From a virus (Duplodnaviria; Heunggongvirae; Uroviricota; Caudoviricetes), in IMG/VR virus record IMGVR_UViG_2703719389_000008: DNA of 9,301 bases; one strand, 5' to 3'. The translations under genes and the position numbers were made by a program. Under the pieces are notes generated by a model that was not told the origin of the DNA, did no database searches, and saw only the letters and a list, made by a program, of their open reading frames with translations. Below are positions 1 through 9,301 of the stretch, piece by piece; position 1 is the stretch's first letter, and every line of letters starts with the position of its first letter.

Positions 1-537
1 TTACGCATGCTTTTCGGTTCCGGCTCCACCAGTACCCGGGTATTGTGGAATACCAAAAAAAAAAATTGCGCCGGTACCATAACCACCAGCCCGAGTGTCA
101 ATCATCCATGCTGACAGGTTTTGATGAGCAAGTTGCCCGAGTGATTCGGATGTCTGGTCACGCAGCTGGTTGTCGCAGTGCCAGCACAACACCATTGCGC
201 CGGTACCATAACGGTGAATGACGGTTTCGCTGTGATGATAATCGCCGTGTGGCCACTGGCAGGATTTAATATGGCACAACAGCCAGTCAGACAATGCACC
301 AGCACCACCAGCAGCACGAATTACCCGTGCGTTACTGAAAAACGGCAGCAATGTTTTGTCTTCCACCAGCGGCTGGCGAACGGCAGGAACGACCCCGGAC
401 GGCAGATTACGCATGCTTTTCGGTTCCGGCTCCACCAGTACCCGGGTATTGTGGAATACCGGCATGGATTCACGGCCCGGCTTAACGACCACCATCCCGA
501 GTTCCGGTACCAGAACAGGTCGAAGTAATACCCGCAC
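1..537 (-). CDS. Hypothetical prophage protein (178 aa) with a Cys/His cluster resembling an HNH/NinG-like zinc-binding nuclease motif; 3' end is mosaic
   Basis: GTG start at 537 preceded by GGAGGT Shine-Dalgarno 4 nt upstream, immediately after the stop of the upstream 92-aa gene (translational coupling). Motif CHIKSC-x7-DYHH-x15-LCWHCDNQ. Last 54 nt (1..54) duplicate 407..460 in another frame, followed by an A11 run (55..65). TAA stop at 1..3. Confidence 0.45.
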   Translation of the reverse strand: MRVLLRPVLVPELGMVVVKPGRESMPVFHNTRVLVEPEPKSMRNLPSGVVPAVRQPLVEDKTLLPFFSNARVIRAAGGAGALSDWLLCHIKSCQWPHGDYHHSETVIHRYGTGAMVLCWHCDNQLRDQTSESLGQLAHQNLSAWMIDTRAGGYGTGAIFFFGIPQYPGTGGAGTEKHA

Positions 538-1200: not shown

Positions 1201-1599
1201 TTAAGTATTTTTGATTCTATTCCGGCACTGGTTGTCGCAGTGCCAGCACAACACCATTGCGCCGGTACCATAACGGTGAATGACGGTTTCGCTGTGATGA
1301 TAATCGCCGTGTGGCCACTGGCAGGATTTAATATGGCGCAACAGCCAGTCAGACAATGCACCAGCACCACCAGCAGCACGAATCACCCGTGCGTTACTGA
1401 AAAACGGCAGCAATGTTTTGTCTTCCACCAGCGGCTGGCGAACGGCAGGAACGACCCCGGACGGCAGATTACGCATGCTTTTCGGTTCCGGCTCCACCAG
1501 TACCCGGGTATTGTGGAATACCGGCATGGATTCACGGCCCGGCTTAACGATCACCAGCCCGAGTTCCGGTACCAGAACAGGTCGAAGTAATACCCGCAC
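1201..1599 (-). CDS. 3'-truncated paralog (132 aa) of the 1..537 HNH/NinG-like gene; probable gene remnant
   Basis: Same GTG start and Shine-Dalgarno context as copy A. Near-identical to copy A through the CWHCDNQ motif, then ends after 7 more codons exactly where the repeat homology stops (about 1228). Confidence 0.4.
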   Translation of the reverse strand: MRVLLRPVLVPELGLVIVKPGRESMPVFHNTRVLVEPEPKSMRNLPSGVVPAVRQPLVEDKTLLPFFSNARVIRAAGGAGALSDWLLRHIKSCQWPHGDYHHSETVIHRYGTGAMVLCWHCDNQCRNRIKNT

Positions 1600-1600
1600 G

Positions 1601-1879
1601 TTACCTCCAGATGCGTTGCTGGAATGTGCGGGACGGACGCGGTGGGCGTTCGGAGTAAGGGAGTCTGACTGAGATTATCCAGTGACGATAGTCGAGACTA
1701 AGAGCTTTCTTAACCTCGTATCCACGCCTGCGGTAACACTGAATTATCCATTCAGCCTGCTCTTCAGTGCATGGAGGATGCTGGAACCAGTCTGATGTGA
1801 ATGCGTGAAAACGCCGTCCGCACCTGCTGGCAAAGACAGCAGAATCATTAGAATTGTGTAATTTGGTATCGTGCGCCAT
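1601..1879 (-). CDS. Hypothetical small prophage protein (92 aa), copy B of the duplicated gene
   Basis: Start chosen at the internal ATG (1879) that aligns with the copy A start (MAHDTKL vs MARNVKY). The longer 1601..2008 ORF in the track would read through a rho-independent terminator. Confidence 0.5.
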   Translation of the reverse strand: MAHDTKLHNSNDSAVFASRCGRRFHAFTSDWFQHPPCTEEQAEWIIQCYRRRGYEVKKALSLDYRHWIISVRLPYSERPPRPSRTFQQRIWR

Positions 1880-1950
1880 CGGTTGTCTCTGCTGGCGCAG
1901 CAGGTGCCAGTTGTTCAGGCTGGCGTGCGAATTGTAAACCAGAATGCCAG

Positions 1951-1978
1951 GAAAAAACAAAACCCGCCGAAGCGGGTT
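1951..1978 (-). terminator. Rho-independent terminator downstream of hok
   Basis: On the minus strand: AACCCGC-TTCG-GCGGGTT (7-bp stem, UUCG tetraloop) followed by TTGTTTTTTCC, about 70 nt after the hok stop. Confidence 0.65.
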
Positions 1979-2046
1979 AAGTGCGGGTGCATTGAGGATG
2001 CCTGACACATCAGAGGTGGCGAGGGATTTCTCCCCCGCCTGGTCTC

Positions 2047-2202
2047 TTACTCCTCAGGTTCGTAAGCTGTGAAGACAGCGACCTCCGTCTGGCCGGTTCG
2101 GATTCGTACCTCGCAGAGGTCTTTCCTCGTTACCAGTGTCGTCACTATGACGGTTAAACAGATGACGATCAGGACGATTAACATCGCCTTTTGCTGCTTC
2201 AT
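2047..2202 (-). CDS. hokD: Hok/Gef-family small membrane toxin (51 aa)
   Basis: Translation MKQQKAMLIVLIVICLTVIVTTLVTRKDLCEVRIRTGQTEVAVFTAYEPEE: Hok-family hydrophobic helix plus conserved RKxLCE and AYE motifs, close to my recollection of HokD/RelF. AAGGAG RBS 9 nt upstream of ATG 2202. The in-frame upstream ATG at 2259 is treated as leader. Confidence 0.85.
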   Translation of the reverse strand: MKQQKAMLIVLIVICLTVIVTTLVTRKDLCEVRIRTGQTEVAVFTAYEPEE

Positions 2203-2479
2203 AGCCTGCTTCTCCTTGCCTTTCGGCACGTAAGAGGCTAACCTAGATTTGCCGTTCATAGATTGAGCCTCAGATTAATGTTAAGCGTCTTGCAGGACGC
2301 GTAATGTTAACTGGGGCTTTTCTCTATCTGCCTTTGGTGTTCATGCCTGAGACAGATAGCCTCAAGCACCCGCAGCCATTCTACTTAACTCCCGTCACCT
2401 CGCCAATATGAAATCAATCAGAAAGGCGAACCATAAGAGCAATAGCAAGACAATAAGGCCCGCATGGTCGTACAAAGAC

Positions 2480-5278
2480 TCAGGCACCGTGACATTTTTT
2501 GTACTTTATTCCCGAGCCACAGGGGCATTGTTCATTCCGGCCGACCGCACCAAAAACTTCAGTTAATTTAGTCTTTGCTGCTTTATGGGCAAGCTGTACG
2601 ATGTAATTTGATTGATTTTGGATTTCTTGACGCTGTACACCTGTGAGGCCTTCGATATAGGGAGCAAGGCGCTGCATTTCGACATCAGCTGCTTTATGCT
2701 GACCCGATAGTGCTAATATGACTGCGTATTGGCTTCGAACCTGAATCAGTCGATGTACTAGACCTGCCTCATTGACAACCGGCAGGACATGTTGCTCCAT
2801 GACTTCCTTGGCACCGTCGTAATCCTTTATGGCAACAAACTCATCCGCCAGATCTTGGCCCACCCTGACCATGGATTCCGGGGCCATGGCCAGATTGTAG
2901 AACTTCATCGAATGAATACGCAGTAATGGTGACAGTTTTCCCTGCGCATCACGAATTCTGGCCAGCAACTCCAGAGCATCAGCCATATGTTTAAAGTGTT
3001 CCTGCATATTTTCGGAATGATTAATAGTTTTCCATAATGCGTCGGCGTTTTTTCCTATGACATCAGCAGGTGTGATACCAAATAAAGAATAGTACCCTTG
3101 TATAACATTACAGCTTAATGTTTCAGCATCCTTGAGTTTTTTTAATCTCCAGAGTGCAATGGCATGGTTGTAGTCAAAGATGCGTTTATGTTCTTCATCT
3201 GGGAGTTGGGGGCGGACTTCCTGTGCCAGCTTTTGAACTTCTCGTGCATCATTGCTTTCTGCCGAAAATAACATTCGTTTCATTGCATAGGCCATCTCTT
3301 CTTGATAGCCGAACTTGTGCTCCGCAAGTAAAGCTCCCATGATGTTTAACCTCTGAGCAATGTGGTCGGATATTCCGTCTTTAAGCTCAACGAAAACAAG
3401 GCCATCCAATGCCCAGAATTTATGAACAGGTCCCAATAAGTCCGATGTTGCAGCACGCTCCAAGCTTGCAAGAATGTCGACCGTCACGCCCATCTCATAA
3501 AACATTTCTTGGCCTGAGAGTTCGATCAACGTCGTGACATCATTGAGCTTAATATAAAGTTGAGTCAACAACGATAACCGTTTTGTATTGCGGGTATTAT
3601 GAAGACTTTCAACTAAAAGGTCTTTCAGCGCTAGTAGCGCTTTGTTCGATATACCCTGATCCATCAGTTCCAGATGTTGCAGTCCTAGCCCCCTGACAGC
3701 ATCATGTACCTTCAGGGTCTGGTTTCCATAAATTTCAATAGTGCCAGTAGCGCGCATTTTCCTAATTAAAGAAGCAGCACTGCTTGGTGAAATGTTCAGC
3801 GAATTGATTAGGAGCGTAGAAATCTCTTCGCGACTCAGCCCTACGTCAGAGAGACTGAACAATGCCAGCGCGCTCTGAAGTAGTGATTCAAATCCCTGAA
3901 ATACACGTGACAGAATAATTTCTTGGGCGGTTTCCGCAGTATGGGTTTGTTGCTGGAGTTCAGCACACAGAGCATCGACATTACGCTCATAATCAGAAAC
4001 GGCGATTTTTGCGGCGCTCTCTACATACAGGGGAAGACCACCAGTGTAAGCCCGTAGCTGCTCGTATCCCATAGCGGTGGCAAATCCTCCGATATCGTTT
4101 ACAACGACAGCTACCGTATCGAGATTCCATCCCTGCAGGCCCTCGCGCTGTAGCCCCGTCATGACCTCCAGTTCGCGAACGTTTTCGTGAGGCTGGCACA
4201 ACAGCACAAAACGAATATGTGTAGTTGCATTCAGAACATCCAGTAGATTTTCCGCAGGTACACGATGGGCGTTATCCAGAACCAGCACCAAGGTGGTACC
4301 CTGCTCTTTCAGGTAGGTATCAAAACTCCTAAGAGCCTCAAAACCACTGGCACCGGGGAGCAAAATCCTGCGCAAACCGTCTTGGTCACGGGCTGTAAAT
4401 CTAGCAGCCATCTCGCGCACCAGCGTACTGGCCAGAGCTGGACCGGGAAGATCACCGGTGTCGTAATAAGCACAAAGTGCAGTGGAGTGTAATGCGGCCT
4501 GTGCGGCCCAAGCTGTCTTGCCTGCACCTGAGAGTCCACAAAGGATACGGATCCGCTCACCAGATGTGAGAGAAGGTTCTTCGTTCTGTGGGCGGTACAG
4601 TGCTGGTGGTGCAGGAAAGTCCTGTAGCTGAACGATCAACTGTTCAAATAGTTCAGTAAGTTCTTCCGTGAAAAACGTATGTTGTCCATTGGTATCGCCT
4701 CCGGTGGCGGCAAGCTGAACCAATCCTGCTAACTTCCAAATCAAGGATTCTGGGGACAATAGTGAAAATTTCAGCTTTTCTGCTTCTGCGATACACCATG
4801 TGGCCGCATCAGCCAGAGTACTCCATGCGGGCGGAAGTGCCGGGTGACGTCCAGCTGTCGACTGGGGCCAGACAATAAGAACATCAGAAGGAAGCTTTTT
4901 ATCGTCAATCATCTTCTGAAGCAGCGGTCCAGGCGCCTGGTTTACAATAATCACAAAAGAAGCCACCCCTTCGCGGTTTGCCGAAGTATGCTCATTTCTG
5001 AGCTTTACAAATCGCTCCAGAGCCCCCGACACATCGTTGGGCATAATAGGTTTTGAACGGGTTTTAACCTGAATGTAGAGACGTTCCTGTTTGGATTTCA
5101 GCTCAATATCCTCATCAAGCTCGACAGTTACTGAGTCCATAGCTGCCCTCTGCGCCAAAAGTAAGCAGCCTACAGCGTAAAGATGCTGGTAAAGGAACCC
5201 CCGGTGTACCGCTTCGATACGCACCAACTGCACAGGATCCAGTACGTCCAGATTTTGTTTGTTTTCACTTCCCCACAT
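2480..5278 (-). CDS. Large multidomain protein (932 aa): PD-(D/E)xK-like nuclease motif, STAND (NB-ARC-like) P-loop NTPase, TPR-like helical repeats, C-terminal SEC-C zinc ribbon; candidate NLR-like antiviral sensor
   Basis: Uninterrupted 2.8-kb ORF with AAGGAA RBS 6 nt upstream of ATG 5278. Walker A GLSGAGKT (nt 4514..4537, verified by translation), Walker B LVLVLDN (4271..4291, verified), GGLPL (about 4028..4042), VHD (aa 524-526), N-terminal D57...Q70-V-K72 (about 5063..5122), C-terminal CPCGSGIKYKKCH (2489..2527). Confidence 0.85.
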   Translation of the reverse strand: MWGSENKQNLDVLDPVQLVRIEAVHRGFLYQHLYAVGCLLLAQRAAMDSVTVELDEDIELKSKQERLYIQVKTRSKPIMPNDVSGALERFVKLRNEHTSANREGVASFVIIVNQAPGPLLQKMIDDKKLPSDVLIVWPQSTAGRHPALPPAWSTLADAATWCIAEAEKLKFSLLSPESLIWKLAGLVQLAATGGDTNGQHTFFTEELTELFEQLIVQLQDFPAPPALYRPQNEEPSLTSGERIRILCGLSGAGKTAWAAQAALHSTALCAYYDTGDLPGPALASTLVREMAARFTARDQDGLRRILLPGASGFEALRSFDTYLKEQGTTLVLVLDNAHRVPAENLLDVLNATTHIRFVLLCQPHENVRELEVMTGLQREGLQGWNLDTVAVVVNDIGGFATAMGYEQLRAYTGGLPLYVESAAKIAVSDYERNVDALCAELQQQTHTAETAQEIILSRVFQGFESLLQSALALFSLSDVGLSREEISTLLINSLNISPSSAASLIRKMRATGTIEIYGNQTLKVHDAVRGLGLQHLELMDQGISNKALLALKDLLVESLHNTRNTKRLSLLTQLYIKLNDVTTLIELSGQEMFYEMGVTVDILASLERAATSDLLGPVHKFWALDGLVFVELKDGISDHIAQRLNIMGALLAEHKFGYQEEMAYAMKRMLFSAESNDAREVQKLAQEVRPQLPDEEHKRIFDYNHAIALWRLKKLKDAETLSCNVIQGYYSLFGITPADVIGKNADALWKTINHSENMQEHFKHMADALELLARIRDAQGKLSPLLRIHSMKFYNLAMAPESMVRVGQDLADEFVAIKDYDGAKEVMEQHVLPVVNEAGLVHRLIQVRSQYAVILALSGQHKAADVEMQRLAPYIEGLTGVQRQEIQNQSNYIVQLAHKAAKTKLTEVFGAVGRNEQCPCGSGIKYKKCHGA

Positions 5279-5347
5279 GACCTATTCCTTGAGCTATTTG
5301 TTTGACGGACTCACATTAGTACTTCAATGTAATCAATTGAACTTGAA

Positions 5348-5377
5348 TTATAATTAAAAGAGGCAAAGAAAAGTCAT
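5348..5377 (-). promoter_or_regulatory. Candidate sigma70 promoter for the 932-aa gene
   Basis: On the minus strand ATGACT (-35-like), 19-bp spacer, TATAAT (-10) within an AT-rich 243-bp intergenic region. Sequence-only guess with a long spacer. Confidence 0.25.
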
Positions 5378-5521
5378 TTGGCCTATTCTCCGTTGATTAA
5401 TACAAACTAACGATACCAACGTTCACCTAGCTCAAAGCTGACAACCAGACTAGGTCTGGGCCTGTGCCATCGAAGTGTCAATTAATATCTGAACTAATGC
5501 TCTTTAATTTCGTCACTTCAA

Positions 5522-5773
5522 TTAATACCGAACATTTCCCTGATAAAATTCCAGTATGCGCTGCATAACTTCGCTCTGACGACACTCGCGACAAATTATA
5601 TTCTGTCGTCTGTTGTAACGGCGTATTTCGCCATCTAGCAATGAATAAATCAGGTCAGGGTCGCTCTTCTTTTTCACTGCCGCTCTCGACATTTTTTTTG
5701 CGGGCTTTTCCCCAGTCCTTACGAGCCTGCTCCGAAGGAAATATTCCATGTCCTGAACCATATACTGCGCCAC
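5522..5773 (-). CDS. Ren-like C-terminal segment; probably the downstream half of a frameshifted 135-aa gene
   Basis: C-terminus ...NIICRECRQSEVMQRILEFYQGNVRY resembles the lambda Ren C-terminus (KECRQSAAMKRVLAVYG, from memory). Overlaps 5655..5930 in the +1 frame across an A8 run. Confidence 0.45.
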   Translation of the reverse strand: MAQYMVQDMEYFLRSRLVRTGEKPAKKMSRAAVKKKSDPDLIYSLLDGEIRRYNRRQNIICRECRQSEVMQRILEFYQGNVRY

Positions 5774-5930
5774 TAACTACCAGCTCTTTCACCAGAACTT
5801 CTATCAGGTGTCTCGTCGCCCCGGTTTCATTTTCCAGTTGTTTACGCGTTTTTCGCCCATCTCTGCGTACCAGTTCCACAATGCGCGCCTTCACTTCTTC
5901 CCGCAGTTCGGGAGTAAAAACTTTTGCCAC
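5655..5930 (-). CDS. Small HTH-like protein; probably the upstream half of the frameshifted Ren-like gene
   Basis: 91-aa ORF. Frame changes relative to 5522..5773 at the A8 homopolymer (5692..5699); an A7 tract would give one continuous 135-aa ORF. Confidence 0.45.
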   Translation of the reverse strand: MAKVFTPELREEVKARIVELVRRDGRKTRKQLENETGATRHLIEVLVKELVVSGAVYGSGHGIFPSEQARKDWGKARKKNVESGSEKEERP

Positions 5931-5967
5931 AAGCCCTCCTGAAAATTACCCCATGACCTGAAATCTG

Positions 5968-6918
5968 TTACCCTCTGAATCCCGGCGGAATTTCGGTGTC
6001 CGGTTCAGAAATATGATTAACACAACGCTGGTTGTTCGTGCCGCTTACCGGGAGCAACCAGGGGTTTTCAAAATTCCGGTCCGGTCCAAAAAACGTCGTC
6101 GCTCGCTGAACAAATTCCGTTCCCGTTTTCCCGGTAGCAGCCAGGTATCTTGTGTAACGCCTTACACCATCCAGCATGGCCTCTGGTGGCACCCCCTCGC
6201 GTAATCTGGCCTTCCAGGCACTGAAAGCGGATTTCTTCGGGTTTGCCCCGGCTCGTAACGGGTATTCCCGCCAGACCTGTTCGAACACATCCGGATAATC
6301 CACTCGTCCCACAGGCTGCCCGGTGTTTTCCGGGACTACCCGATCGGCTTCCCGCTGAATGGCGGAATCGGCTTCAGGCTGCTGCAGTTGGTGTGATTGC
6401 TCCGGCCCAGCGGTCATCGCCTGCTGCACAGCGCCCGAATCGGCTTTCAGCGCATACGCTGAATCGGCTTCCGGTGTCGTGCCTGCGGGCTGGCCAGGAG
6501 TGACGGTCTGAACATCCCCTACATGGTTCGTGGCGTTTTTTACGCCATGGACCATAGTGTTTTGATCTTCTTTATCTGTATCTCTATCTGTATCTTTATC
6601 TGTCGTGACTCGTCGTGACATGTGCGTGACATTTCGTGACGCGCCGTGACAATCGCCATTTTGTTCCCGCTTTCTTTCCCTCTCACGCTGCGCCCTCTTG
6701 CGCTCTGCCGGAGATTTTGCGGTTTGCGAAATATTGCCGTTGTCCTCTTTAAGCACCTGGCGTTTTTCCCATCCAGTGATTAAATCACCATCAAGTACCC
6801 GCCCCTGCATCGTCTGCAAAATTGAATCAATTACCTCTTCTGTCACGTCGAGCGCACTTGCCAAATCTTCTGTCGTGACATCAATGTGACCTCGCGTGAC
6901 ATTTCGTGACGCGCTCAC
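5968..6918 (-). CDS. Phage replication initiator (replisome-organizer type), main reading frame, with repeat-encoded low-complexity linker and DnaD/phage-associated-like C-terminal domain
   Basis: 316-aa ORF (GTG at 6918). Aa 15-40 EDLASALDVTEEVIDSILQTMQGRVL match the second half of the replisome-organizer N-terminal domain; linker TDKDTDRDTDKED is encoded by DNA direct repeats; C-terminal block VWREYP...AWKARL...RYTRYL...ATTFF...ENPW. Sits directly after ydaS-ydaT, the O position of a lambdoid phage. Confidence 0.7.
   Translation of the reverse strand: MSASRNVTRGHIDVTTEDLASALDVTEEVIDSILQTMQGRVLDGDLITGWEKRQVLKEDNGNISQTAKSPAERKRAQRERERKREQNGDCHGASRNVTHMSRRVTTDKDTDRDTDKEDQNTMVHGVKNATNHVGDVQTVTPGQPAGTTPEADSAYALKADSGAVQQAMTAGPEQSHQLQQPEADSAIQREADRVVPENTGQPVGRVDYPDVFEQVWREYPLRAGANPKKSAFSAWKARLREGVPPEAMLDGVRRYTRYLAATGKTGTEFVQRATTFFGPDRNFENPWLLPVSGTNNQRCVNHISEPDTEIPPGFRG
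6561..6650. repeat. Origin-like repeat block: three 12-bp tandem repeats in an AT-rich stretch plus five helically phased CGTGAC hexamers
   Basis: 12-bp units ATCTGTATCTCT / ATCTGTATCTTT / ATCTGTCGTGAC at 6574, 6586, 6598. CGTGAC at 6604, 6614, 6625, 6635, 6645 (10-11 bp spacing). Lies inside the replication gene. Confidence 0.6.
6874..6914. repeat. Second phased hexamer array, including a 21-bp exact direct repeat of the origin-like block
   Basis: (C/T)GTGAC at 6874, 6885, 6895, 6905. GCGTGACATTTCGTGACGCGC at 6894..6914 is identical to 6624..6644. Confidence 0.55.
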
Positions 6919-7039
6919 CAGGAGCGTGGATATACACTGCCATCACTGTTGCAATTGGCTGCCCTGACACCCTGGCAATTGTTCGCCACTTAGGGTCATT
7001 TGGCATGTCATGCCATAATCTGAGCCAGGCGTTAGCCAT
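6881..7039 (-). pseudogene. N-terminal fragment of the replication initiator in a different frame (52 codons); apparent +1 frame break relative to 5968..6918
   Basis: ATG at 7039 preceded by GAGGTGAG Shine-Dalgarno. Translation MANAWLRLWHDMPNDPKWRTIARVSGQPIATVMAVYIHAPGERVTKCHARSH (verified codon by codon) carries the W-L-[KR]-L...D-P-K signature of replisome-organizer N-terminal domains. Ends at TGA 6881..6883 inside the hexamer array. Confidence 0.4.
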
Positions 7040-7110
7040 ACTCACCTCTTCTGATACCGAATCTTTTTACTCACGAATTGCCGGAAGCGATTCGATATGG
7101 CTATTGTCAG

Positions 7111-7536
7111 TCAATGTACTGCCACAGCATTTCCTGCCGGGCCACCACGGTTCATCTGATTGAAACCGGCGATTGCCACTGCGACAAAATCATCAGCGTC
7201 TCTCACCAGTCGCTCCCGCGTCTCCACCAACTCCCGAAAATAAGCTGAACTGTGGCTGCGCATTCTGGCCACCAGCAAAGGTGGCATTGCCTTTTCGATC
7301 GCTGGTAACAACGCCTGAATTTTTTCAACTGCATCAGGGGTGTCTTTCTCTACCCAGCGGAAAATTTTCTGGGTATTGCGAGCCAGGGCTTCCGGATGGC
7401 TGTCGTCATACAGTTCAGGAAACGTCATACCCAACTCAAAATAAGCCTGGGTTATTCCAGCTGCTGGAACTTTTTCGCCATCAGGACGCGCCCAGGCATT
7501 CATCGCCATGCGGATGTGTTCATGCTTGATTTTCAT
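7111..7536 (-). CDS. ydaT: YdaT-family protein (141 aa), CII-like position in the early-right operon
   Basis: N-terminus MKIKHEHI... characteristic of the Rac YdaT family; start overlaps the ydaS stop by 17 nt. Confidence 0.8.
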   Translation of the reverse strand: MKIKHEHIRMAMNAWARPDGEKVPAAGITQAYFELGMTFPELYDDSHPEALARNTQKIFRWVEKDTPDAVEKIQALLPAIEKAMPPLLVARMRSHSSAYFRELVETRERLVRDADDFVAVAIAGFNQMNRGGPAGNAVAVH

Positions 7537-7801
7537 GAATCAAGCTCCTAGTAAGTGGTTGTGTTAACGTTTTGGTATCTTCCAGCTCGGGCCAAATATT
7601 CATCCAATCAAAAGGCCTTAGTTGCTGACGTGTAACTTCACCATTACTGGCTCGCTCAATAAGGACACATAACGATGCCCCTAACATTTGACCTTTACTC
7701 AATGCCTTTCTTAGATAACCGATGCTAGTACCACACTCACATGCAAACATACGCTGTTCATCTGACGAAAGAGAATTGAGAAATATTCTTAATTCTTCCA
7801 T
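7520..7801 (-). CDS. ydaS: Cro-like HTH regulator, YdaS family (93 aa)
   Basis: HTH segment GTSIGYLRKALSKGQ and conserved E(V)TRQQLRPFDW block; AAGGAG RBS 5 nt upstream of ATG 7801; divergent from the repressor gene. Confidence 0.75.
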   Translation of the reverse strand: MEELRIFLNSLSSDEQRMFACECGTSIGYLRKALSKGQMLGASLCVLIERASNGEVTRQQLRPFDWMNIWPELEDTKTLTQPLTRSLIHENQA

Positions 7802-7826
7802 AGCTACTCCTTAGTAAACACAGCAA

Positions 7827-7895
7827 AGAATACCCACAGGTAAACAAAAGTCAATACCCTTGGGTTGTTTACCTTGCGGTAATCGCATCTATTAT
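7827..7895. promoter_or_regulatory. Divergent immunity promoters with operator repeats
   Basis: Minus strand: -35 TTGACT (7849..7854) and -10 TATTCT (7827..7832), 16-bp spacer, driving ydaS. Plus strand: -35 TTGTTT (7865..7870) and -10 TATTAT (7890..7895) ending 6 nt before ATG 7902. 10-bp inverted repeat AGGTAAACAA (7838..7847) / TTGTTTACCT (7865..7874), third GTAAACA at 7815..7821, plus TACCC-N2-GGGT(A/T) half-palindromes at 7831..7842 and 7855..7866. Confidence 0.5.
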
Positions 7896-7901
7896 TTACC
7901 T

Positions 7902-8321
7902 ATGGACAAATATGAATTTAGACGACAACAACTCATCAAAATTCGTGATGAGAAATGCGATGGTAAAGCGGTTAACGTGGCCAGAAAGATCGGTCGCGAG
8001 CCTTCTTATGTATCAAGAATGTTGTACCCAGAGGGGAAAAAAGGAAAAAAACGGATCGCTGATGATATGGTGGAGATTATAGAAGAGTCCTTTGGGTTAC
8101 CCCGGGGATGGATGGATGGTATCGTTTCATCATCAACGAACACAGCCTCCAATTATGAAACAAGGGTTCTAACGCCACGACAACGTATTTTTTTAGATCT
8201 CTTAGACGAACTGCCAGAAAGTGAAGCGGATAACTTATTAAAAACTCTTGAAGAGAAAAAACAGTATTACAATATGATCTACGAAGAAATCCGTAAAAAG
8301 AAAGCACAAAACGCATCATAA
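7902..8321 (+). CDS. CI-like prophage repressor (RacR/DicA-type HTH protein, 139 aa)
   Basis: HTH segment GKAVNVARKIGREPSYVSRML and C-terminal LDLLDELPESEADNLL, similar in layout to DicA/RacR-type repressors. No Shine-Dalgarno before ATG 7902 and a -10 just upstream, consistent with a leaderless cI-like transcript. The track's TTG start at 7860 is rejected. Confidence 0.7.
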   Translation: MDKYEFRRQQLIKIRDEKCDGKAVNVARKIGREPSYVSRMLYPEGKKGKKRIADDMVEIIEESFGLPRGWMDGIVSSSTNTASNYETRVLTPRQRIFLDLLDELPESEADNLLKTLEEKKQYYNMIYEEIRKKKAQNAS

Positions 8322-8363
8322 CTCACCAAACAACCAGTCACCAGTTAAGACACATCAAAAAAT

Positions 8364-8403
8364 TACCCATGGGTATTTACTTTTTGGATACCCATGGGTA
8401 TCC
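8364..8403. promoter_or_regulatory. Pair of perfect palindromes upstream of ydfA, candidate operator
   Basis: TACCCATGGGTA at 8364..8375 and GGATACCCATGGGTATCC at 8386..8403, centres 25 bp apart. Confidence 0.4.
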
Positions 8404-8586
8404 TTCCTTTCATACCAACCCACCCCACCCCACAGAATGCAGGGCAATACTTCGAGTTACCAGGCAGTGGTCAGGGGTTAAGTAGCCAGCCCGAGGCGTA
8501 AGAACATGACGGCAGGGTTCAACTTTAATAACTATGCAGCAGGTTTTTGTTCCGCTACCCCGGCGTTAAGGGGAAATGAGGTCAAC

Positions 8587-8742
8587 ATGGATACTATCGA
8601 TCTTGGCAACAACGAATCTCTGGTGTACGGCGTGTTTCCCAACCAGGACGGTACGTTCACCGCGATGACGTATACCAAAAGCAAAACGTTTAAAACCGAA
8701 AATGGTGCCCGTCGCTGGCTGGAAAGAAACTCAGGTGAGTGA
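8587..8742 (+). CDS. ydfA: YdfA-like small protein (51 aa)
   Basis: Translation MDTIDLGNNESLVYGVFPNQDGTFTAMTYTKSKTFKTENGARRWLERNSGE matches K-12 Qin YdfA in length (51 aa); sequence agreement is from memory. GAGGT RBS before ATG 8587; the track's 8506 start is an upstream in-frame extension. Confidence 0.75.
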   Translation: MDTIDLGNNESLVYGVFPNQDGTFTAMTYTKSKTFKTENGARRWLERNSGE

Positions 8743-8743
8743 T

Positions 8744-8872
8744 ATGGATTTCGACACAATCATGGAAAAGGCTTACGAAGAATACTTCGAAGGTCTTGCC
8801 GAAGGCGAAGAAGCTCTCAGCTTCAACGAATTTAAACAGGCGCTTTCCAGTTCGGCAAAATCTAACGGCTGA
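8744..8872 (+). CDS. ydfB: YdfB-like small protein (42 aa)
   Basis: Translation MDFDTIMEKAYEEYFEGLAEGEEALSFNEFKQALSSSAKSNG. ATG 8744 lies 1 nt after the ydfA stop with AGGTGAG RBS. Below the ORF-track size cutoff. Matches YdfB in size and position. Confidence 0.7.
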   Translation: MDFDTIMEKAYEEYFEGLAEGEEALSFNEFKQALSSSAKSNG

Positions 8873-8901
8873 TAAGCGAAACAGCACCGCGAGGAATCAG
8901 T

Positions 8902-9120
8902 ATGCAGAAACGAGAACCCGTCATCATCGCGCCAGACTATACCGATGATGAACTTTATGAGTGGATGCACCAGAAAATTAATGCAGCGCAGGATCTGAAA
9001 TGGGCCAATGAAGCCAGAGCTAAGCAGGCTGAAAATCTGTCCGCTCTGGAGCAGGATATCACCAATCTGGAAAAAGCAGCGGCATTAAGCATTGCCAGAA
9101 TGATTACATACCCGCGTTAG
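8902..9120 (+). CDS. ydfC: YdfC-like protein (72 aa)
   Basis: GAGGAA RBS before ATG 8902; size and position after ydfA/ydfB match Qin ydfC. Confidence 0.75.
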   Translation: MQKREPVIIAPDYTDDELYEWMHQKINAAQDLKWANEARAKQAENLSALEQDITNLEKAAALSIARMITYPR

Positions 9121-9301
9121 TAGCTAATCAACAAAGCTAAGGTTAGTAATTAAGGAGTTCTCCACGGGTGAGGTGGAGTGCGTGCGCCGGACACGGGTGA
9201 GCATCCGGCATTGACAGTTTACTGAAAGGATATTTCCCTGAAAAGTCAGACCATAACGCGAAAGCGCACGGCGAGGTAGCTGGTTCATAGATAGCCTGTC
9301 G

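What the first reader, a model, noticed from the sequence alone, without database searches (positions are those of the whole stretch)
5279..5521. AT-rich 243-bp leader upstream of the STAND gene with a candidate promoter and a hairpin
The interval between the Ren-like stop and the STAND start is visibly more AT-rich than the flanks. It contains a plausible sigma70 promoter on the minus strand (TATAAT from 5348..5353, ATGACT from 5372..5377) and a 6-bp-stem hairpin CCAGAC-TAG-GTCTGG (5447..5461). This looks like an independently transcribed insert (moron) rather than part of the early operon.
Basis: partly seen in the sequence, partly recalled or inferred. Interest (0 to 1): 0.4.

Follow-up and report, generated by a model that had tools for sequence, protein, structure and literature searches.

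The report
Leader of a prophage defence-gene insert
The AT-rich stretch is the junction where a roughly 3-kb candidate anti-phage gene was inserted into a variable slot of a lambda-like E. coli prophage; about two thirds of it travels with the gene and probably carries its promoter, but the promoter and hairpin motifs are no better than chance, so this is an ordinary feature.

Summary
The spacer 5279-5521 has GC 0.37, in the lowest 2% of 243-nt windows here. ATGACT lies 19 nt upstream. The hairpin CCAGAC-TAG-GTCTGG is at 5445-5459, two bases off. None of these exceeds chance, and the hairpin is neither conserved nor followed by a U-tract.

Comparative data support the "insert" reading. Related phages and prophages with other cargo are homologous to the window only up to 2456 and from about 5430. 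The DUF977(Ren-like)-to-hok interval shows at least 35 ORF arrangements in 57 loci, including Kiwa, PD-Lambda-2 and OLD-like systems.

The leader is therefore composite. Bases 5430-5521 are phage backbone and hold the hairpin. Bases 5279-5429 belong to the cassette and hold the promoter-like site. The same gene with this leader (window 5459..2456, 92% identical) also sits in an integrase/tRNA-Leu island.

The gene encodes a Cap4-nuclease, STAND NTPase, TPR and SEC-C protein, similar in layout to Avs proteins. Independent transcription is likely but unproven. No terminator was found on either side of the gene, so read-through from the early operon is also expected.

The parts
5430..5521 (-). 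Phage-backbone block, the 3' flank of the DUF977/Ren-like gene. It is shared with phages Tritos and Evi and with prophages of Ecol_316, N61, L059 and L078-80, all of which carry different cargo.
   Evidence: blastn breakpoints at 5430-5433; alignments A2, A4 and A5; GC 0.424; no compensatory pairs.
5445..5459 (-). 6-bp hairpin CCAGAC-CUA-GUCUGG, read on the minus strand. It is not followed by a U-tract, it is broken in L013, Ecol_316, Tritos/Evi and L089, and it is not part of the consensus fold.
5279..5429 (-). Cassette-specific leader of the 932-aa gene (GC 0.338). It is absent from phages with other cargo and is present upstream of the same gene in the integrase/tRNA-Leu island L089.
5372..5377 (-). 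-35-like hexamer ATGACT (4/6 matches), 19 nt upstream of the -10. It reads GTGACT in L089. Its first two bases are removed by a 12-nt deletion in the EC13-type variant.
5347..5352 (-). Perfect -10 hexamer TATAAT inside the palindrome AATTATAATT. It reads TATATT in L089. The predicted transcription start is near 5340, giving a 5' UTR of about 62 nt.
   Evidence: the start position is an inference
5323..5341 (-). Perfect inverted repeat TTCAAT-N7-ATTGAA immediately downstream of the -10. It is identical in L089. It could be an operator-like site or a 5'-terminal mRNA hairpin; its function is unknown.
5285..5290 (-). Shine-Dalgarno AAGGAA, 7 nt before the ATG. About 25 nt around it is the only upstream sequence shared with the more distant copies (Serratia, Enterobacter, Yersinia).
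2480..5278 (-). 932-aa cargo gene: Cap4-type PD-(D/E)xK nuclease, STAND P-loop NTPase, helical-repeat (TPR-like) domain and a C-terminal SEC-C zinc motif.
   Evidence: Pfam; Foldseek hits to 6mfv (E 3e-13) and Avs3 8dgc (E 2e-12); neighbours in defence islands
2457..2479 (-). 3' tail of the cassette. It holds the first arm (ATGCGGGC, 2465..2458) of a stem-loop that is complete in L089 and L090. The phage junction at 2456/2457 removes the second arm.

Best explanation
The 243-bp spacer is a composite recombination junction at the upstream edge of a defence-gene cassette (about 2457-5429). The cassette sits in the variable DUF977(Ren-like)-to-hok slot of a Rac/Qin-type lambdoid prophage.

Shown: the DUF977-proximal 92 nt (5430-5521) are phage backbone. 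The 151 nt next to the gene (5279-5429) came in with the 932-aa Cap4-STAND-TPR-SEC-C gene.

Inferred: this portable leader supplies a sigma-70 promoter and a strong ribosome-binding site. The most likely promoter is TATAAT 5352..5347 with the weak -35 ATGACT at 19 nt. With it the gene would be expressed from the repressed prophage. No terminator separates the gene from the early operon, so during lytic growth it is probably also read through from the pR-like promoter.

The hairpin at 5445-5459 is most likely a chance feature of the backbone with no role.
For: Boundaries: five phages/prophages with other cargo are homologous to the window only up to 2456 and from 5430-5433.

Hotspot: 57 IMG/VR loci with both flanks show at least 35 ORF arrangements in this interval. 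Cargo includes KwaB (E 1.5e-159), PD-Lambda-2_C, RmrA and an ATPase-Toprim protein (PADLOC), with a cytosine-methyltransferase-like ORF (not family-searched) next to the ATPase-Toprim gene. Many of the large cargo ORFs lie antisense to the early operon, so they must be self-transcribed (annotated).

Portability: the gene plus leader, window 5459..2456, is 91.75% identical in L089, directly downstream of an integrase whose E. coli homologues lie next to tRNA-Leu, beside a type I restriction subunit gene (hsdR). The -10/-35 spacing of 19 nt is kept there (TATATT, GTGACT).

Other family members are stand-alone genes. They are often divergent from Gabija gajAB across a 345-nt intergenic region, so they need a promoter of their own.

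The site ranks 4th in the window by weight-matrix score, after the hok and pR-like promoters. It scores 8.97, against a mean of 5.5 for equal-sized pieces of the gene's own coding sequence.

The cassette leader is the most AT-rich segment. The cassette occurs in prophages with at least three different immunity modules.
Against: The promoter score is matched by 19-27% of shuffles. The 19-nt spacer lies outside the usual 16-18 nt and there is no extended -10. A natural 12-nt deletion (EC13, L014) weakens the -35.

Conservation between the two leader versions (about 90%) is no higher at the hexamers than elsewhere, so it does not single out the promoter. There are no transcript data.

No terminator was found between DUF977 and the gene or after the gene. 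Read-through alone could therefore express it during induction.
Confidence: 0.6

Rival explanations
1. There is no promoter of its own. The gene is transcribed only by read-through from the early (pR-like) operon, and the AT-rich spacer is inert sequence left by recombination.
For: The motifs are no better than chance. No terminator-like site lies between DUF977 and the gene. The gene has the same orientation as the early operon. Recombination remnants are common in hotspots (PMC13586616).
Against: The same leader accompanies the gene in the integrase/tRNA-Leu island, where no phage early operon lies upstream. Relatives sit divergent from their neighbours. A defence gene expressed only after induction would not protect the lysogen. 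In this strain the upstream DUF977 is frameshifted, which would favour polarity.
Confidence: 0.2
2. The hairpin and backbone block (5430-5521) act as a tR2-like terminator or RNA 3' end. They would insulate the cassette from the early operon.
For: The position just after the Ren-like gene is analogous to lambda tR2 (my own knowledge). The block is shared by phages with different cargo, and about 45 nt are identical between the window and the Ecol_316/N61 prophages.
Against: No U-tract follows the hairpin and the terminator scan lists nothing. The hairpin is broken in L013, Ecol_316, Tritos/Evi and L089. There are no compensatory pairs and the covariation term is -0.54. Fold z-score is -1.2. 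The RNA strand is G-rich rather than C-rich, unlike a Rho utilisation (rut) site. Most DUF977 prophages lack the block.
Confidence: 0.07
3. The leader is a regulated promoter. The TTCAAT-N7-ATTGAA palindrome at +1..+19 would be an operator for a repressor encoded elsewhere, keeping the toxic nuclease gene low until needed.
For: The 6+6 palindrome is perfect, lies exactly at the predicted start site and is identical in L089. The Providencia homologue has an Xre-type HTH gene 27 nt upstream.
Against: No regulator gene is present in this cassette. At least two such hairpins occur in 10% of shuffles. The prophage immunity region shares no matching operator, with the longest shared words only 8 nt.
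Confidence: 0.1
4. The spacer encodes a structured cis-regulatory RNA or a small RNA.
For: It is a long 5' region with two small hairpins.
Against: There is no credible Rfam match in 5279-5521; the only one is a eukaryotic snoRNA model at E 0.7. Folding energies are ordinary. There is no covariation. The leader is not conserved beyond the closest relatives.
Confidence: 0.03

Closest known systems
Morons of lambdoid phages (Hendrix/Juhala concept; my own knowledge)
   Same: An extra gene lies between two conserved phage genes and is absent from close relatives. It has precise boundaries and its own AT-rich upstream region with a promoter-like site. It is likely to benefit the lysogen.
   Different: No terminator of its own is present, because the 3' stem-loop is truncated by the junction. 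The gene body has the same GC as the phage. Promoter activity is not demonstrated.
[quoted passage not shown]
   Same: Conserved flanking genes bracket highly variable cargo that includes known anti-phage systems. Cargo is swapped by recombination, which leaves short intergenic remnants.
   Different: This is a different phage type (Rac/Qin-like lambdoid) and a different slot, between the DUF977/Ren-like gene and hok/sok in the nin-equivalent region. I found no description of this slot in the papers I could search.
Avs (antiviral STAND) proteins with Cap4 nuclease effectors, such as SeAvs3 and SeAvs7 (PMC13581612; PDB 8dgc)
   Same: The layout is the same: N-terminal Cap4-type nuclease, STAND NTPase and a helical-repeat sensor. 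It is a single-gene system found in prophages and defence islands.
   Different: No PADLOC Avs model matches, and no solved structure matches the nuclease/NTPase/TPR body by sequence; the only sequence hits are to the C-terminal SEC-C motif. The protein has an extra C-terminal SEC-C zinc motif. The trigger and the defence phenotype are unknown.
Lambda tR2 terminator downstream of ren (my own knowledge)
   Same: The position is the same, immediately after the Ren-like gene.
   Different: No terminator features are present here.

Membership tests
sigma-70 promoter | -10 hexamer close to TATAAT | tested here: met
   TATAAT 6/6 at 5352..5347 on the minus strand
sigma-70 promoter | -35 hexamer close to TTGACA, 16-18 nt upstream of the -10 | tested here: not met
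   The best is ATGACT (4/6) at 19 nt. Hexamers at 17-18 nt match 0-1 of 6. The tool scan does not list the site.
sigma-70 promoter | Match stronger than expected from composition | tested here: not met
   19-27% of dinucleotide shuffles score at least 8.97
sigma-70 promoter | Elements preferentially conserved in independent copies | tested here: inconclusive
   L089 keeps TATATT, GTGACT and the 19-nt spacing, but the whole leader is about 90% identical. The EC13 type deletes part of the -35.
sigma-70 promoter | Mapped transcription start or reporter activity | not testable with these tools
   No transcript data are available
intrinsic (Rho-independent) terminator | GC-rich stem followed directly by a U-tract | tested here: not met
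   A 6-bp stem is present, but it is followed by UUGUCAGCUUUG. The terminator scan finds none in 5279-5521.
intrinsic (Rho-independent) terminator | Stem conserved or covarying in relatives | tested here: not met
   The stem is broken in L013, Ecol_316, Tritos/Evi and L089. None of the 37 consensus pairs is compensatory.
moron | Gene present in some related phages and absent in others, with defined boundaries between conserved genes | tested here: met
   Boundaries at 2456/2457 and about 5430; present in 16 of 5426 genomes
moron | Own promoter | tested here: inconclusive
   A promoter-like site lies in the portable leader, but it is not above chance
moron | Own terminator | tested here: not met
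   None was found. The 3' stem-loop of other copies is truncated.
moron | Base composition distinct from the surrounding phage genes | tested here: inconclusive
   Leader GC is 0.338, but gene GC is 0.480 against 0.487 for the window
prophage defence hotspot | Conserved flanks with highly variable content | tested here: met
   At least 35 ORF arrangements in 57 DUF977-to-hok intervals, 1.0-4.6 kb long
prophage defence hotspot | Known defence systems among the cargo | tested here: met
   KwaB 1.5e-159, RmrA 6e-107, PD-Lambda-2_C 1.7e-41, HEC-04/ATPase-Toprim 1.7e-34; an ATP-dependent nuclease is annotated in N61
prophage defence hotspot | This cargo protects against phage | not testable with these tools
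   Needs plaque assays
Avs / antiviral STAND | STAND NTPase core | tested here: met
   Pfam AAA_22 above its cutoff; AAA_16 matches only below its cutoff (21.4 vs 32.6 bits). The model (pLDDT 79.7) matches the STAND-TPR structure 6mfv at E 3.4e-13, Avs3 8dgc at 2.2e-12, plant NLRs and MalT.
Avs / antiviral STAND | N-terminal effector and C-terminal repeat sensor | tested here: met
   Cap4_nuclease scores 27.1 bits against a cutoff of 26.2. Residues from about 540 to 910 are all-helical repeats with TPR-protein hits.
Avs / antiviral STAND | Match to an established Avs family model | tested here: not met
   PADLOC gives only domain-level hits (LmuA N-terminus, SEC-C-containing E2 models) and no Avs model. 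The only solved structures matched by sequence are SEC-C peptides.

The most novel reading that the evidence does not exclude
The DUF977(Ren-like)-to-hok interval of Rac/Qin-type lambdoid prophages is a defence hotspot comparable to those of P2/P4, and I found no description of it. Its occupant here is an uncharacterised Avs-like family (Cap4 nuclease, STAND, TPR, SEC-C). This gene moves between phages and integrase/tRNA-Leu islands as a self-contained unit together with a roughly 150-180-nt promoter-bearing leader.
Probability: 0.45. Interest if true: 0.45.

Novelty: new member of a known kind. Interest (0 to 1): 0.27.

Why it matters
For the spacer itself, little is at stake. It is an ordinary AT-rich upstream region with a plausible but unproven promoter, and its hairpin appears to be meaningless.

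The useful results are these:
- Exact cassette limits (2457 to about 5429/5459), which tell an experimenter what fragment to clone with its native control region.
- Evidence that the Ren-like-to-hok slot of Rac-type lambdoid prophages collects defence systems.
- A widespread, untested single-gene STAND nuclease with a SEC-C motif as a candidate anti-phage system.

Tried and rejected
- **Rfam scan of the whole window**: nothing credible in the spacer.
- **Single-sequence and alignment folding of both strands**: ordinary energies and no covariation.
- **A promoter built on the perfect TTGACA at 5481..5476:** rejected, because the hexamers 16-18 nt downstream (CAGACC and neighbours) are not -10-like in the window or in relatives.
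- **A sigma-54 reading of TGGCAC (about 5467):** rejected by eye, because the -12 element is missing.
- **LexA, CRP and IHF sites:** checked by eye only; none is convincing.
- **Operators shared with the prophage immunity region:** the longest shared words are 8 nt.
- **Exact 20-mer searches of genome and metagenome collections for more leader copies**: 14 of the 16 hits were chance matches in unrelated taxa. The other 2 were near-identical E. coli-type contigs, so they added no diversity.
- **Promoter scores upstream of other hotspot cargo genes**: too noisy to generalise.
- **Literature searches for this hotspot or this protein family**: nothing specific. Brenes & Laub 2025 is not held in the library.

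Full report
**Setting.** Over 1225-9301 the window is 99.8% identical to a Rac/Qin-type lambdoid prophage of E. coli Z1322HEC0003. On the minus strand the gene order is as follows:
- a pR-like promoter and a cro-like gene
- ydaT
- a replisome organiser
- a DUF977 gene (annotated in other records as Ren-like or LygF)
- a 932-aa gene (2480-5278)
- hok/sok
- further downstream genes

**Checking the observation.**
- *AT-richness.* The spacer 5279-5521 has GC 0.370. The window as a whole has 0.487, and the two flanking genes have 0.48 and 0.47. Only 2% of 243-nt windows are as AT-rich, and the others lie in the immunity region.
ATGACT is 5377..5372, and the spacer is 19 nt.
- *Tool scan.* The tool's sigma-70 scan requires a 16-18 nt spacer and does not list the site.
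- *Weight-matrix scan.* I ran my own scan with frequencies recalled from the Harley & Reynolds compilation and a penalty for spacer length. It ranks the site 4th in the window. The top two are the hok promoter (2406..2378) and the pR-like promoter (7854..7827), which is a reasonable sanity check.
- *Chance level.* 27% of dinucleotide shuffles of the spacer score as well, and 19% of shuffles of 5279-5429.
- *Hairpin.* CCAGAC-TAG-GTCTGG is at 5445-5459, two bases off. A perfect hairpin of 6 bp or more turns up in 31.5% of shuffles.
- *Folding.* Energies of the spacer are ordinary on both strands, with z-scores from -0.8 to -1.2.

The features exist, then, but none is more than chance would give.

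**Cassette boundaries.** I compared the window with five phages/prophages that carry other genes between DUF977 and hok: Tritos, Evi, HannyBb, and the prophages of Ecol_316 and N61. In all five, homology on the hok side ends at 2456. In four of them homology resumes at 5430-5433; in HannyBb it resumes at 5528.

The spacer is therefore composite:
- 5430-5521 is phage backbone. It holds the hairpin and a perfect TTGACA that has no usable -10.
- 5279-5429 belongs to the insert. It holds the promoter-like site, a perfect TTCAAT-N7-ATTGAA palindrome at the predicted start site, and the ribosome-binding site AAGGAA.

The backbone block is not universal. Among 80 IMG/VR loci with a DUF977 homologue, only the cassette-bearing loci and four others have it.

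**Portability of the leader.** The cassette occurs in 16 of 5426 complete E. coli genomes. It is always in this slot, but in prophages with at least three different immunity modules.

A 92%-identical protein (P0002) is encoded on contig L089. The gene there sits directly downstream of an integrase whose E. coli homologues lie next to tRNA-Leu. It also sits beside a type I restriction subunit gene (hsdR). Nucleotide homology to the window runs from 5459 to 2456 at 91.75%. About 180 nt of leader therefore travel with the gene outside any phage early operon. In that copy the -10 is TATATT, the -35 is GTGACT, and the 19-nt spacing is kept. The whole leader is about 90% identical, however, so this comparison does not single out the hexamers.

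More distant copies share only about 25 nt around the ribosome-binding site:
- A Serratia ficaria copy is 81% identical.
- A group about 73% identical occurs in Enterobacter, Yersinia and others. It lies divergent from Gabija gajAB across a 345-nt intergenic region, so it must have a promoter of its own.
- The Providencia copy has an Xre-type HTH gene 27 nt upstream and lies near AbiGi.

**The slot is a hotspot.** In 57 IMG/VR loci with both flanks, the DUF977-to-hok interval is 1.0-4.6 kb long and shows at least 35 ORF arrangements. PADLOC recognises the following among the representative cargo proteins:
- Kiwa KwaB (E 1.5e-159)
- RmrA (6e-107)
- PD-Lambda-2_C (1.7e-41)
- an ATPase-Toprim/HEC-04 protein (1.7e-34), next to an ORF that looks like a cytosine methyltransferase (judged by eye; it was not run against any family library)

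N61 carries an annotated ATP-dependent nuclease on the opposite strand. Many large cargo ORFs are antisense to the early operon, so self-transcription is the rule in this slot.

**The cargo gene.** Pfam finds Cap4_nuclease, AAA_22 and SEC-C above their cutoffs, plus a sub-threshold AAA_16 match. PADLOC finds only domain-level hits. By sequence, the only solved structures matched are SEC-C peptides.

An AlphaFold2 model (mean pLDDT 79.7) matches a STAND-TPR protein, 6mfv, at E 3.4e-13. It also matches Avs3 (8dgc) at 2.2e-12, plant NLR resistosomes and MalT. The protein has an Avs-like layout with an added SEC-C motif, but it is not a member of any Avs family that I could test.

**Mechanism.**
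- *Shown:* this is an inserted cassette with defined ends, in a defence hotspot, with a leader that moves with the gene.
- *Inferred:* the leader provides a sigma-70 promoter, most likely the TATAAT site, so that the gene is expressed in the lysogen.
- *Inferred:* no terminator-like site lies between DUF977 and the gene, or between the gene and hok. Early-operon transcripts therefore probably also run through it after induction.
- *Hairpin:* I assign it no function.

I put 0.6 on this account as a whole. I put about 0.5 on the specific TATAAT site being the promoter.

**Novelty.** The kind of feature is well known: a moron, or a prophage defence hotspot (PMC9122126, PMC13586616). This slot and this protein family did not turn up in the literature I could search. 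The spacer itself is ordinary.

Noticed in passing
window 5522-5930 (minus strand); A-run 5692-5699; codon 5524..5522: The DUF977/Ren-like gene is a pseudogene in this strain. It has A8 where relatives have A7, which shifts the frame. It also has TTA>TAA three codons before the ancestral TGA stop (5515..5513). RefSeq marks the near-identical copy (>=99.8% identical) in NZ_CP148579 as 'frameshifted'.
   Followed up: yes
window 2415-2456 (minus strand): The hok-side junction lies inside a small SD-preceded hydrophobic ORF (MLVLKCALAIAAVMAIYCLAVVLTDRLSD) that is intact just upstream of the hok promoter in Tritos, Evi, HannyBb, Ecol_316 and N61. Only its 3' third remains in the window.
   Followed up: partly
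window 2457-2479; L089 4979-5030; L090 6799-6850: After the stop codon, other copies have a stem-loop ATGCNNGC-N12-GCNNGCAT. The arms differ in a compensatory way (TG/CA in Serratia, against an inferred GG/CC). The phage junction removes the second arm, so the prophage copy lacks this possible 3' stabiliser or terminator.
   Followed up: partly
window 5410-5459 vs L089 1999-2050 and Tritos/Evi: About 50 nt at the upstream cassette edge resemble both the cassette-less phage backbone and the island copy L089. The recombination that moved the cassette therefore seems to have occurred within a sequence common to both contexts, or one context carried a little of the other along.
   Followed up: partly
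window 1-54, 166-834, 407-460, 1228-1896, 1469-1522: There are internal repeats. 166-834 is 93% identical to 1228-1896 (the DUF968 / hypothetical-gene region). 1-54 is 100% identical to 407-460 and to 1469-1522. The left 1.2 kb of the window is not collinear with NZ_CP148579. This could be a duplication or an assembly feature.
   Followed up: no
window 1957-2038 (minus strand): A sub-threshold Rfam match to the isrK Hfq-binding sRNA (27 bits against a gathering score of 50, E 0.012), just downstream of hok.
   Followed up: no
window 2197-2371 (minus strand), hok 2047-2202: An intact hok/sok type I toxin-antitoxin locus (sok at 110 bits, E 6e-25). Its promoter-like site at 2406..2378 has the best promoter score in the window. 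A transcript of the 932-aa gene would run into it, because no terminator intervenes.
   Followed up: partly
L093-L097 (Enterobacter, Yersinia, metagenomes): Homologues of the 932-aa protein at about 73% identity are repeatedly found divergent from Gabija gajA-gajB. Other copies sit near AbiGi, a type I restriction subunit gene (hsdR) and a Schlafen-like (SLFN_AlbA_2) gene.
   Followed up: partly
NZ_OZ546984 (H73) and L014: In one lineage the cassette gene is interrupted by an IS3-family element (ISEc52).
   Followed up: no
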